Notes: generated by a model from the sequence alone, not told the origin. Shown: positions 31,998 to 34,029, counted from the first letter of the stretch. The stretch: 64,000 nucleotides of DNA from Escherichia coli (GCF_013315695.1 NZ_CP054353.1); one strand, 5' to 3'. Program-made: numbers and translations.

Positions 31998-32450
31998 ATT
32001 TACCCTGTTTGTTTAATTATGTTGTACACCTCTTCAGGAGTATTCATAAAACAAGGCAAATGTAAAGAACTGTATTGTTTTGTATAACCACATGGTTACC
32101 TAATCGCCAATTAATATAAGCTCCATTATTTCTCCATATTTTTATGTTAGAAGTGACAAGGAGAAATGTAATGTTTCTCTCAGAGAATATAAATCATTCC
32201 TTTTGCACACCTTAATGGTGGGCTTTTTTATGCAAAACCTGAACGTCCTGTGGTATTACTCTGGCATAATGATTTTCGCGATTAACCAACAACCAGACCA
32301 GCAAAGACGCCACCACAAGCACAGCAACATCCATCAGGCTTGCCACACCCCATATGTGCGGCTCAAAGCCGCCATGGCATATTAATCCGCTTGCCATTTT
32401 CGAACAGCTGATTGGTTTAGTCCGGTGTTTCCCTGCTTGCACTTAAAAAT

Positions 32451-32583
32451 GAGCGGATGGGAAACTCTCGAAATGGTTCGTCGATATGCTCACCTTTCAG
32501 TCAGGCATTTCACCGCGCACGCGAGCAAAATCAAAGGCACAAGAGGAGAACGTAGTTTACTTAAATGTGAGATAACTTATTGA
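32451..32583 (+). pseudogene. 3' remnant of a lambdoid-type tyrosine integrase
   Basis: Translation ...WETLEMVRRYAHLSVRHFTAHASKIKG... matches the conserved integrase C-terminal (catalytic Tyr) region; no upstream catalytic core. Confidence 0.55.
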
Positions 32584-32694
32584 TTTAAATGGTGCCGATA
32601 AGAGGAGTAAAACACTCGATTAATCTCGTGTTAATGCCATCACCTACGACCATTACTAATTGATTGAATCTTATAGAAAAAATTATCATTTTCT

Positions 32695-34029
32695 ATGCGT
32701 TACAATCAATTTTCACATTACAAACGCTCCGACACTTTAGCCGGGGAGTTTATGAGATACAAGCCCAATCAATACATAATCTGTGATTCTTACGGTAACT
32801 ACTATTTGAGGATCACGTTGCCTGTGTATATGCAGCCCTTTTTTGAAGGAAAAAGGACGTTTGTCAGAAGTCTGCACACAAGTAGTCTTCGTGTTGCACG
32901 TAGAAAGCGTGATCAGATTGCAGATGAATACCATTGTCTACGGGAGAGTGTCGCCCCTGTAAACAGCACAATAGAGAACACGCTGGAACTGTTACGCAGT
33001 AAGGCTAAATACGCCAAAACAGCTACCAGAATGCAAGATACAGCGTCTTCGTGTCCGTCATTGCTTAAAATTCTTGAAATCTACCTGACAATTAACAGCA
33101 CGAAGAAGAAGCCAGCCACTTTAGCTAAGGCAAGAAAAGCGGTAGAGATGTTTCTCTCCTACCGTAAAAAGCCTGATATTGCATTGCAAGATGTAAGCCG
33201 CACCACTGTTACAGGCTGGATAGAACACATGCAAAAAACCCTTTCACAACAATCAATTGCAAATTATATCAGCCCAATGGCCCAGCTATGGGAGTTAGCT
33301 TCATCACGTTACCACGATGCGCCAGAAAGGGCGCTCTCCCCCTGGCGAGGGCATAGGCTTGATGTGGCACAAAGTAGAGAGAGCTACGAGGCATTTTCTA
33401 ACAAAGAGCTATTGCAGGTGTTGCAAGTATTTTCCGGTGATTCAGCAGAAAACAAAGAAATGATGGCTTTGTGTCTTATCGGTGCTTATACAGGTATGCG
33501 GATCAATGAGATAGCAAGTCTCACAATAGACGATGTGAAAGAGATCGAAGGTGTGCTGTGTTTTGAAATCACACAGGGAAAAACGAAAGCTGCGGCACGT
33601 CTTGTGCCTGTGCATAGCCTTATCACTCCGTTGGTGTTGTCGCTGCGTGAAAAGCCTCATAATGGCTTTTTGTTCTATCACGCCAGCATTACAGAGCGTG
33701 CTGATGGTAAACGTTCCACGTGGCACACGCAGAGATTTACAAGAGCTAAACGAAAGGCTTTAGGGGAAAAGGGAACAGAAAGGAAGGTGTTTCATTCTCT
33801 GAGACACGGAGTAGCACAGCTTCTTGATCGAAATCAAATTCCAGAAGACAGGATCGCCCTTCTCCTGGGCCATACACGCGGCAATACAGAGACATTCCGC
33901 ACATATAGCAAGAATGCAGCTTCTCCAGTAGAGCTTAAAAACTATATTGAGCTTCTACGCTACCCTGAAATAGAGAAAGGCTTATCAATCAATAAAAAAT
34001 CAAATTTAATGCGCAAAACAACGCCATAG
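32695..34029 (+). CDS. tyrosine recombinase/integrase
   Basis: 444-aa ORF; C-terminal catalytic region FHSLRHGVAQLL...LLGHTRGNTETFRTY; alternative start at Met 32752. Confidence 0.75.
   Translation: MRYNQFSHYKRSDTLAGEFMRYKPNQYIICDSYGNYYLRITLPVYMQPFFEGKRTFVRSLHTSSLRVARRKRDQIADEYHCLRESVAPVNSTIENTLELLRSKAKYAKTATRMQDTASSCPSLLKILEIYLTINSTKKKPATLAKARKAVEMFLSYRKKPDIALQDVSRTTVTGWIEHMQKTLSQQSIANYISPMAQLWELASSRYHDAPERALSPWRGHRLDVAQSRESYEAFSNKELLQVLQVFSGDSAENKEMMALCLIGAYTGMRINEIASLTIDDVKEIEGVLCFEITQGKTKAAARLVPVHSLITPLVLSLREKPHNGFLFYHASITERADGKRSTWHTQRFTRAKRKALGEKGTERKVFHSLRHGVAQLLDRNQIPEDRIALLLGHTRGNTETFRTYSKNAASPVELKNYIELLRYPEIEKGLSINKKSNLMRKTTP

What the first reader, a model, noticed from the sequence alone, without database searches (positions are those of the whole stretch)
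32440..34029. Integrase remnant followed by an intact integrase at the yagU boundary; paoABCD-region genes absent
A C-terminal integrase fragment (...EMVRRYAHLSVRHF...) lies ~110 bp upstream of a complete 444-aa tyrosine recombinase, directly beside yagU where E. coli K-12 carries the pao genes. This points to successive integration and decay of different elements at one site and marks the distal boundary of the thrW-to-yagU island complex in the pre-inversion order.
Basis: partly seen in the sequence, partly recalled or inferred. Interest (0 to 1): 0.35.

Follow-up and report, generated by a model that had tools for sequence, protein, structure and literature searches.

The report
Old integrase relic beside thrW island integrase
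This stretch is the far edge of a well-known E. coli hotspot where mobile elements insert one after another into the thrW tRNA gene: a dead scrap of an old P22-type phage integrase, a 19-base leftover of the tRNA, then the intact integrase of a later, now IS-damaged element. The arrangement is ordinary and already annotated.

Summary
Window 32446-32532 encodes 29 residues, including the catalytic-tyrosine motif, of a P22/SfIV-type integrase. It is a pseudogene relic. An intact tyrosine-recombinase ORF follows at 32695-34029 (444 codons; RefSeq starts it at 32752, 425 aa).

An 18/19 copy of the thrW 3' end (32590-32608) lies between the two genes, 6 nt after the relic's stop codon and convergent with it. 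This is the displaced tRNA end (attR, like K-12 ptwF). The relic is therefore older than the element that carries the intact integrase.

A second, degenerate copy (39507-39522) separates that element from a third one with a P4-type integrase next to thrW. IS2 with a 6.4-kb deletion and an IS1-flanked 23.4-kb inversion have since scrambled the complex.

The pao-less yagU/relic junction occurs in 1,295 of 5,426 complete E. coli genomes, including ST131, so it is a lineage polymorphism. thrW-yagU is a published island hotspot. The main finding is ordinary (interest 0.2).

There is one side lead. When intact, the integrase's element (about 12.3 kb) encodes a capsid protein, a tape measure and a tail-tube initiator related to phi92-like virulent phages. 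It also carries a 46-nt copy of the phi92 terminal-repeat end, so it may be an undescribed phage satellite.

The parts
8784..8859 (+). Intact thrW (tRNA-Thr CGU), the attachment site of the whole island complex
   Evidence: ARAGORN; sequence
31383..31997 (-). yagU (DUF1440), the last conserved chromosomal gene. K-12 synteny ends at window 32158
   Evidence: Pfam PF07274, E=6e-48; blastn against K-12
32212..32397 (-). 61-codon hypothetical ORF in the 377-bp stretch (32159-32535) that K-12 lacks. About 82% nt identical to a gene in the Rac-prophage region of B strains, so possibly another scrap of the old lambdoid prophage
   Evidence: RefSeq WP_000146241.1; no Pfam or NCBIfam hit
32402..32583 (+). 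Relic of the 3' end of a P22/SfIV-type integrase gene. The protein-level match covers 32446-32532 and includes the catalytic-tyrosine motif RRYAHL. It has a 29-bp internal deletion and no N-terminal 320 residues, so it is non-functional
   Evidence: The reference full-length integrase is 99.7% identical to SfIV Int and 89.5% identical to P22 Int
32590..32608 (-). 18/19 copy of the thrW 3' end (ACTCCTCTTATCGGCACCA). This is the displaced old tRNA end, i.e. the distal att site (attR) and the counterpart of K-12 ptwF. Its CCA end is 6 nt from the relic's stop codon, convergent with it
   Evidence: Inverted repeat I3. Pattern search found 2 matches against 0.01 expected by chance. Alignments
32695..34029 (+). 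Intact tyrosine integrase (444-codon ORF; probable start 32752, 425 aa) with a DUF6538 N-terminal domain. Catalytic residues R269, K296, H367, R370, H393 and Y404. It is the first gene of the second thrW element
34111..34824 (-). Dit-like 'phage baseplate protein', a homologue of the phi92 gp135 tail tube initiator (about 61% aa identity)
   Evidence: Pfam PF21821, E=3e-29
34847..35799 (-). C-terminal half of a tape-measure-like gene (609 aa when intact), truncated by IS2
   Evidence: PHROG 16051, E=6e-52, on the intact copy
35800..37130 (+). IS2 (1,331 bp). The 6.4 kb to its right is deleted relative to strain AF3. The lost genes are the N-terminal half of the tape measure, the capsid gene, small ORFs and the replication initiator
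37131..39506 (.). ORF-poor, thrW-proximal end of the integrase's element. Positions 38350-38395 match the right boundary of the phi92 direct terminal repeat (44/46)
   Evidence: no Rfam hit
39507..39522 (-). Degenerate second copy of the thrW 3' end (TTGTGCGATAATAGGA). It is the junction between the integrase's element and the P4-type-integrase element. In strain STEFF_1 the intact thrW sits at exactly this position
9025..10239 (+). P4-type integrase (404 aa) of the most recent, thrW-proximal element
   Evidence: Pfam Arm-DNA-bind_3, Phage_int_M and Phage_integrase; NCBIfam PRK09692
21626..22393 (-). IS1, left end of the inverted 22394-45807 segment
   Evidence: (I2)
45808..46575 (+). IS1 in inverted orientation, right end of the inverted segment
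   Evidence: (I1, I2)

Best explanation
The stretch is the distal (yagU-side) junction of a composite island built by repeated site-specific integration into the 3' end of thrW.

Step 1 (inferred from geometry and comparison). A P22/SfIV-type lambdoid prophage integrated at thrW. In such prophages the int gene converges on the tRNA and ends a few bases from its CCA end.

Step 2 (shown as a state, inferred as an event). The prophage decayed to a relic of about 180 bp. In this lineage the relic is joined through a further 240 bp of probably prophage-derived DNA to the region upstream of yagU, with no yagP-paoABCD.

Step 3 (inferred). A roughly 12.3-kb phage-like element with a DUF6538-type tyrosine integrase recombined with the last ~19 nt of thrW. 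The element supplied a new tRNA 3' end. The old end, together with the attached relic, was pushed to the far side. There it now sits 86 bp upstream of the longest integrase ORF (143 bp upstream of the RefSeq start at 32752).

Step 4 (inferred). A P4-type-integrase element integrated into thrW again and left a second, degenerate tRNA-end copy between the two elements.

Step 5 (shown by comparison). IS2 inserted into the tape-measure gene and 6.4 kb was deleted. Recombination between inverted IS1 copies then flipped 23.4 kb, so the two displaced att copies now lie inverted relative to thrW.

The intact integrase is predicted to catalyse integration and excision at TGGTGCCGATAA(T/G)AGGAGT. In this window its element is crippled. 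Recombination with thrW would invert the DNA rather than excise it.
For: - Relic identity: E=4e-12, residues 321-349 of 372; DNA alignment to six other thrW loci; the reference integrase is 99.7% identical to SfIV Int and 89.5% to P22 Int.
- Convergent int/thrW geometry with intact or partial int genes 14 nt from thrW: O157 and strain 2017.20.01CC.
- 'Empty' state, with the relic abutting an intact thrW and no intervening element: JCH8249.
- tRNA-end copies: I3; 2 matches against 0.01 expected.
- Single-element state: in STEFF_1 the same integrase element lies between the relic plus att copy and the intact thrW.
- The same relic and att copy sit next to unrelated elements: K-12 CP4-6/IntF and an ST131 IntF-like pseudogene.
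- Integrase intactness.
- IS2 deletion and IS1 inversion.
- Hotspot status in the literature: PMC6592367, PMC8148099, PMC7545054.
Against: - The order of events is inferred from the logic of tRNA-site integration and was not observed.
- No experiment shows that this integrase is active or that the 19-nt core is its crossover site.
- The proximal att copy is degenerate (one mismatch and a 1-nt deletion in 17 nt).
- The reverse order is formally possible: a P22-type phage could have integrated later into the displaced partial copy. That is unparsimonious, because the relic abuts thrW or other elements in thousands of genomes that lack this integrase.
- Whether the pao-less or the pao-bearing flank is ancestral is unresolved. 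Each has unique DNA at the junction (377 bp here, 5.5 kb in K-12).
- The inversion rests on this one assembly compared with AF3 and K-12.
Confidence: 0.85

Rival explanations
1. The relic and the intact integrase belong to one element. Either they are a duplicated or split integrase gene, or the relic was brought in by the incoming element.
For: They lie 111 bp apart on the same strand.
Against: A thrW-end copy separates them. They come from different integrase families: P22/SfIV type versus DUF6538 type. The relic occurs without this integrase in JCH8249, ST131, K-12 and O157. The integrase element occurs with a much shorter relic next to pao genes in strain 89-3156.
Confidence: 0.02
2. The pao genes were lost in this strain through a recent deletion caused by integration or decay of this particular island.
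For: K-12 carries yagP-paoDCBA exactly where the window has 377 bp of other DNA.
Against: The identical yagU/relic junction (at least 80% of a 511-bp junction probe) is in 1,295 of 5,426 complete genomes, including ST131, which carries a different element. The same integrase element also occurs next to intact pao genes. The junction is therefore old and independent of this element.
Confidence: 0.04
3. About the element, not the junction: the integrase's ~12.3-kb element is a decayed conventional prophage remnant or a defence-type island, not a phage satellite. Its phi92-like sequences would be relics of gene exchange.
For: Only three recognisable virion genes and one replication gene were found. 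About 3.5 kb is ORF-poor and could hide pseudogenes. Klebsiella relatives show no match to any phage end. The 46-nt match overlaps a possible 127-codon ORF.
Against: The same compact layout, with intact ORFs, is kept in 281 E. coli genomes at 93-100% identity. It is also kept across Klebsiella, Citrobacter, Enterobacter, Cronobacter and Serratia. The 46-nt match falls exactly on the phi92 terminal-repeat boundary, and identity drops sharply on both sides.
Confidence: 0.45

Closest known systems
Distal end of the K-12 cryptic prophage CP4-6 (thrW ... intF - ptwF - yagP)
   Same: The attachment site is the same (thrW). The geometry is the same: the integrase is the last gene, read towards thrW, followed by a displaced thrW 3' copy. 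About 75 nt of the same P22-type integrase relic lies beyond that copy.
   Different: IntF and this integrase share only 24% identity, and only over the catalytic domain. The K-12 tRNA copy is at least 41 nt long, against 19 nt here. K-12 then continues into yagP-paoDCBA, whereas this window continues into a longer relic and then yagU.
thrW integration by P22/SfIV-type lambdoid phages (and DLP12 intD at argU), where the int 3' end abuts or overlaps the tRNA 3' end
   Same: The relic aligns to the C-terminus of such integrases. It keeps the convergent geometry a few nt from the CCA end, as seen with full or partial int genes in other strains. That P22 integrates at thrW, and that DLP12 int overlaps argU, is from my own knowledge (Lindsey et al. 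1989).
   Different: Only about 8% of the protein is recognisable here, and it carries an internal deletion. No prophage remains.
Published thrW-yagU islands: VAT-PAI (APEC Ec222, CFT073), PAI III536, GI-thrW of ST131
   Same: These are islands inserted at thrW between proA and yagU, described as a conserved insertion site and recombination hotspot (PMC6592367, PMC8148099, PMC7545054, PMC4134206).
   Different: The cargo differs. There is no vat, sfa or iro here. This window has two phage-like elements instead.
Phage satellites (P4-like, PICI, cf-PICI, PLE)
   Same: When intact, the integrase's element is small (about 12.3 kb) and integrated at a tRNA gene. It has an integrase and a replication initiator but only a partial virion gene set. 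It also carries a short copy of a phage genome-end sequence.
   Different: No alpA, pri-rep, sid/psu, terminase, portal or protease genes were found. It encodes a capsid protein plus a tape measure and a tail-tube initiator. The candidate helper is a 148-kb virulent myovirus with direct terminal repeats. No induction or packaging data exist. In this window the element is broken.

Membership tests
Tyrosine recombinase / phage integrase (intact gene, 32695-34029) | Catalytic-domain match above the curated threshold | tested here: met
   PF00589 scores 62.3 bits against a cut-off of 27.1; PF13102 and PF20172 are also above cut-off
Tyrosine recombinase / phage integrase (intact gene, 32695-34029) | Catalytic residues R, K, H-x-x-R, H/W and the Y nucleophile | tested here: met
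   R269, K296, H367, R370, H393 and Y404, from the alignment to XerA 5hxy and motif positions
Tyrosine recombinase / phage integrase (intact gene, 32695-34029) | Recombination activity at a defined core site | not testable with these tools
   The core TGGTGCCGATAA(T/G)AGGAGT is inferred only from comparing junctions
P22/SfIV-type integrase (relic, 32402-32583) | Sequence homology to family members | tested here: met
   62% identity over 29 aa, E=4e-12, to an integrase that is 89.5% identical to P22 Int. About 91% nt identity, over two short aligned pieces, to the O157 thrW-adjacent int 3' end and tRNA
P22/SfIV-type integrase (relic, 32402-32583) | Complete ORF with all catalytic residues | tested here: not met
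   Only residues 321-349 of 372 are recognisable. There is a 29-bp deletion, and the R, K and HxxR regions are missing. It is a pseudogene relic
tRNA-integrated genomic island | Flanking direct repeats made of the tRNA 3' end | tested here: met
   Copies at 8841-8859, 39507-39522 and 32590-32608. They are direct repeats once the IS1 inversion is undone
tRNA-integrated genomic island | Integrase gene next to an att site | tested here: met
   The integrase ORF starts 86 bp from the distal copy. The P4-type integrase starts 166 bp from thrW
CP4-6 / IntF-type element | Integrase orthologous to IntF | tested here: not met
   24% identity over 136 aa of the catalytic domain only
Phage satellite (the integrase's element, intact form) | Small integrated element lacking a full virion gene set | tested here: met
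   About 12.3 kb. Only a capsid protein, a tape measure and a Dit-like protein were recognised; no terminase, portal, tube, sheath or lysis genes
Phage satellite (the integrase's element, intact form) | Carries the helper's packaging signal | tested here: inconclusive
   44/46 identity to phi92 nt 318-363, which span the end of the 343-bp terminal repeat, and 26/26 identity to the physical genome end. Its function is unknown. Klebsiella relatives have no counterpart
Phage satellite (the integrase's element, intact form) | Helper-dependent induction, packaging and transfer | not testable with these tools
   This needs infection experiments

The most novel reading that the evidence does not exclude
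The intact integrase belongs to a previously undescribed family of ~12-kb satellites in Enterobacterales. These elements insert at tRNA genes and carry a DUF6538-type integrase. In E. coli they would parasitise virulent phi92-like myoviruses (Justusliebigvirus / Phapecoctavirus). They carry their own distant capsid protein, a tape measure and tail-tube initiator recently exchanged with the helper, and a copy of the helper's terminal-repeat end as a packaging signal. The copy in this window is a dead one (IS2 plus a 6.4-kb deletion).
Probability: 0.4. Interest if true: 0.65.

Novelty: already known. Interest (0 to 1): 0.2.

Why it matters
The finding as given matters little. It is a clean textbook example of how a tRNA gene accumulates tandem islands, and of how a displaced tRNA end dates each arrival. 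RefSeq already annotates both genes, and the thrW-yagU hotspot is published. The analysis does correct the idea that the pao genes were lost with this island. It also shows that the IS1 inversion leaves the att copies inverted relative to thrW, so integrase action could no longer excise the complex.

The only part with wider interest is the identity of the integrase's element. If it is a satellite of large virulent phi92-like phages, it would add a new satellite type in E. coli that exploits lytic helpers with terminal repeats. That would be relevant to phage therapy, where such phages are used.

Tried and rejected
- **Rfam scan.** A scan of 31000-46000 at E<=0.1 found only IS009 (31177-31377, between ykgJ and yagU) and a chance hit. 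Nothing was found in the ORF-poor part of the element.
- **Strict tRNA-end search.** A 25-mer thrW 3' pattern with up to 3 mismatches found only thrW itself. The displaced copy matches only the last 19 nt, so a 19-mer was needed.
- **IntF orthology.** The hypothesis that the integrase is an IntF (CP4-6) orthologue was rejected (24% identity).
- **Start codon.** Alignment of the upstream 57 nt across copies could not settle the start codon, because the region is too conserved to be informative.
- **Co-variation test for the satellite idea.** The Klebsiella relative's non-coding end matched no phage except through tRNA-Gly, so this gave no support.
- **IMG/VR scans.** A scan for the 37-nt terminal-repeat-like site returned provirus calls from isolate genomes and one phi92-like phage, with no free satellite contigs. 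An IMG/VR scan with the capsid protein returned only 94-98% identical E. coli copies. The 12,325-bp metagenome contig that carries a homologue is a chromosomal fragment, not a circular element.
- **Literature.** Searches for satellites of phi92-like phages and for DUF6538 found nothing. The Parreira & Gyles 2003 VAT-PAI paper (PMC187369) is not held.
- **Not attempted.** I did not try to decide whether the pao-bearing or the pao-less flank is ancestral. That needs outgroup species.

Full report
**1. What is in the sequence**

The window runs ecpD, ecpE, ykgJ, then yagU (31383-31997, minus strand; Pfam DUF1440). Downstream of the yagU start there is a 61-codon ORF (32212-32397, minus). Next comes a short plus-strand ORF (32425-32583) whose translation contains ...KMSGWETLEMVRRYAHLSVRHFTAHASKI.... 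After that is a 444-codon ORF (32695-34029, plus).

The short ORF aligns to residues 321-349 of a 372-aa integrase that lies next to thrW in strain 2017.20.01CC (62% identity, E=4e-12). That reference integrase is 99.7% identical to the Shigella phage SfIV integrase and 89.5% identical to P22 Int. The fragment is therefore a real relic of a P22/SfIV-type integrase. It retains the catalytic-tyrosine motif but none of the other 320 or so residues.

DNA alignment with six other thrW loci shows that the window allele also has a 29-bp internal deletion. RefSeq annotates the identical sequence in strain AF3 as 'integrase; frameshifted; incomplete; missing N-terminus'.

**2. The intact gene**

The 444-codon ORF matches Pfam Phage_integrase (62 bits), DUF6538 and Phage_int_SAM_5, all above cut-off. 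Alignment to XerA (5hxy) and motif positions give R269, K296, H367, R370, H393 and Y404. RefSeq starts the gene at 32752 (425 aa; WP_024190322.1). That start is preceded by GGGGAG, whereas 32695 has no Shine-Dalgarno sequence. The 57 nt in question are too conserved among copies to settle the point. The protein is not an orthologue of K-12 IntF (24% identity over the catalytic domain only).

**3.

An 18/19 copy of the last 19 nt of thrW (ACTCCTCTTATCGGCACCA on the minus strand) lies at 32590-32608, between the relic's stop codon (32581-32583) and the integrase start. Its CCA end is 6 nt from the stop (repeat I3; two matches in the window against 0.01 expected). The true thrW is at 8784-8859.

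The geometry, with the int 3' end converging on the tRNA 3' end, is the same as that of full or partial P22-type int genes that sit 14 nt from an intact thrW in O157 and in 2017.20.01CC. In strain JCH8249 the relic directly abuts an intact thrW with nothing in between. In K-12, about 75 nt of the same relic lies just beyond the CP4-6 end (ptwF).

An element that integrates into a tRNA 3' end supplies a new 3' end and pushes the old one to its far side, together with whatever lay downstream. The relic therefore predates the element that owns the intact integrase.

**4. The rest of the complex**

In strain STEFF_1 the same integrase element (about 12.3 kb without an IS1) fills the whole space between the relic plus att copy and the intact thrW. 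In the window, the position where STEFF_1 has thrW holds a degenerate copy (39507-39522, TTGTGCGATAATAGGA). This copy is followed by DNA of a third element.

The third element has a P4-type integrase (9025-10239) next to thrW, then AntA, Ash and a DUF927/Toprim primase-helicase. It also has homologues of P22 gp14, gp7 and gp20 (to 21630) and gp16 (43693-45798).

IS2 (35800-37130) interrupts the tape-measure-like gene. The adjacent 6.4 kb that is present in AF3 is missing.

Inverted IS1 copies at 21626-22393 and 45808-46575 flank a segment that is inverted relative to K-12 and AF3. As a consequence (my inference), both displaced att copies are now inverted relative to thrW. Integrase-mediated recombination with thrW would therefore invert the DNA rather than excise it.

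**5. The pao genes**

K-12 homology stops at window 32158 and resumes only for the last 48 nt of the relic plus the att copy (32536-32608). K-12 has 5.5 kb (yagP-paoDCBA) where the window has 377 bp.

This is not peculiar to the window. A 511-bp probe across the yagU/relic junction is covered at 80% or more in 1,295 of 5,426 complete genomes. These include ST131, where an IntF-like pseudogene and AbiE genes follow instead. paoC is present in 3,606 of 5,426 genomes. The same integrase element also occurs beside intact pao genes in strain 89-3156. Only 11 genomes combine the pao-less junction with this integrase element.

Which flank is ancestral was not resolved.

**6. Comparison with what is known**

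thrW is listed among the most frequently used tRNA integration sites in E. coli (PMC7545054). [quoted passage not shown] ST131 has a named GI-thrW (PMC4134206).

The finding is thus a correct reading of an ordinary, already annotated structure. I rate the novelty as 'already known' and the interest as 0.2.

**7. Side lead: what the integrase's element is**

*Gene content.* When intact (STEFF_1, locus L002 21285-34396) the element encodes:
- the integrase;
- a Dit-like protein (PF21821);
- a 609-aa tape-measure-like protein (PHROG 16051);
- a 342-aa Phage_cap_E capsid protein;
- an HTH_36/DnaD-like replication initiator;
- small unknown ORFs.

About 3.5 kb has few ORFs. No terminase, portal, tube, sheath or lysis gene was recognised.

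*Link to phi92-like phages.* The Dit-like and tape-measure genes are about 72% nt identical to those of 145-149-kb virulent myoviruses of the phi92 group. At the protein level, identity is 62% to gp135, 31-53% to gp134 and 22% to the capsid protein gp124.

*Terminal-repeat match.* In the ORF-poor part, window 38350-38395 is 44/46 identical to phi92 nt 318-363. The annotated phi92 terminal repeat is nt 1-343, so the match spans its right boundary. The first 26 nt of the match are identical to the last 26 nt of the phage genome. Identity collapses on both sides of the match.

*Distribution.* The element is kept at 80% coverage or more in 281 E. coli genomes. Its capsid family is confined to Enterobacterales chromosomes. 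Klebsiella relatives at a tRNA-Gly gene keep the layout of capsid protein, small ORF, tape measure and a DUF6538-type integrase.

*Interpretation and caveats.* These features fit a satellite that hijacks phi92-like helpers. I found no description of such an element.

- The function of the 46-nt site is unknown.
- The site overlaps a possible 127-codon ORF.
- The Klebsiella relatives show no phage-end match.
- The copy in this window is dead.

I give this reading a probability of 0.4.

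Noticed in passing
window 38350-38395 (also L002 33239-33284): A 46-nt stretch in the ORF-poor end of the integrase's element is 44/46 identical to phi92 nt 318-363, which straddle the end of the phage's 343-bp direct terminal repeat. Its first 26 nt equal the last 26 nt of the phage genome. Identity drops sharply on both sides. It may be a packaging signal taken from a helper phage.
   Followed up: partly
window 34111-35799; intact copy L002 22812-29503: The element behind the integrase encodes a capsid protein, a tape measure and a tail-tube-initiator (Dit-like) protein. The last two are closest to those of phi92-like virulent myoviruses (61-62% aa identity for the Dit-like protein). 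It also has a DnaD/O-like replication initiator but no terminase or portal. It is a candidate for an undescribed satellite family, with Klebsiella relatives at tRNA-Gly (L042).
   Followed up: partly
window 9025-21630 and 39523-45798: The thrW-proximal element combines a P4-type integrase, AntA, Ash and a DUF927/Toprim primase-helicase with homologues of the P22 ejection proteins gp7, gp20 and gp16 and of gp14 (DUF2824). It also has pRiA4b ORF-3 and PerC-like genes. This is an unusual cargo for a P4-type island. Strain AF3 lacks 10947-21622.
   Followed up: partly
window 21626-22393 and 45808-46575 (IS1); segment 22394-45807: A 23.4-kb segment (ykgR, ykgMO, ecpC'DE, ykgJ, yagU and most of both islands) is inverted between inverted IS1 copies, relative to K-12 and AF3. 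The two displaced thrW-end copies therefore now lie inverted relative to thrW.
   Followed up: partly
window 35800-37130: IS2 is inserted in the tape-measure gene. Relative to AF3 (which has the same IS2), the 6,413 bp to its right are deleted, removing the capsid and replication genes.
   Followed up: yes
window 25129-25896 and 25883-28180: A third IS1 truncates ecpC, and ecpR, ecpA and ecpB are absent. RefSeq marks ecpE as frameshifted in the identical AF3 sequence. The E. coli common pilus operon is therefore inactivated.
   Followed up: no
window 32212-32397 (minus strand): A 61-codon ORF with a hydrophobic core lies between yagU and the relic and has no family hit. About 128 nt of it are 82% identical to a hypothetical gene beside a tail-fibre-assembly remnant and pinR in the Rac region of B strains. 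It may be a scrap of the right end of the old lambdoid prophage.
   Followed up: partly
window 32590-32608 vs 8841-8859; L008 thrW: The displaced tRNA-end copy carries C where the current thrW has A (ACTCCTCTT vs ACTCCTATT). JCH8249's intact thrW has the same C together with a compensating change on the other side of the T stem. The displaced end may therefore derive from a different thrW allele.
   Followed up: partly
window 41540-41614 and 18352-18456: Tandem 9-nt repeats (GTTGGTTCA, about 5 copies) with a related flanking sequence occur in two places of the P4-type-integrase element. They look like iterons and may be origin or regulator binding sites.
   Followed up: no
window 8972-8993 and 39584-39605: A 22-nt motif (ATGGGGGTACTTATGGGGGTAT) lies just upstream of the P4-type integrase gene. 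It recurs, inverted, just inside the far end of the same element. The two copies may be arm-type integrase binding sites on either side of attP.
   Followed up: no
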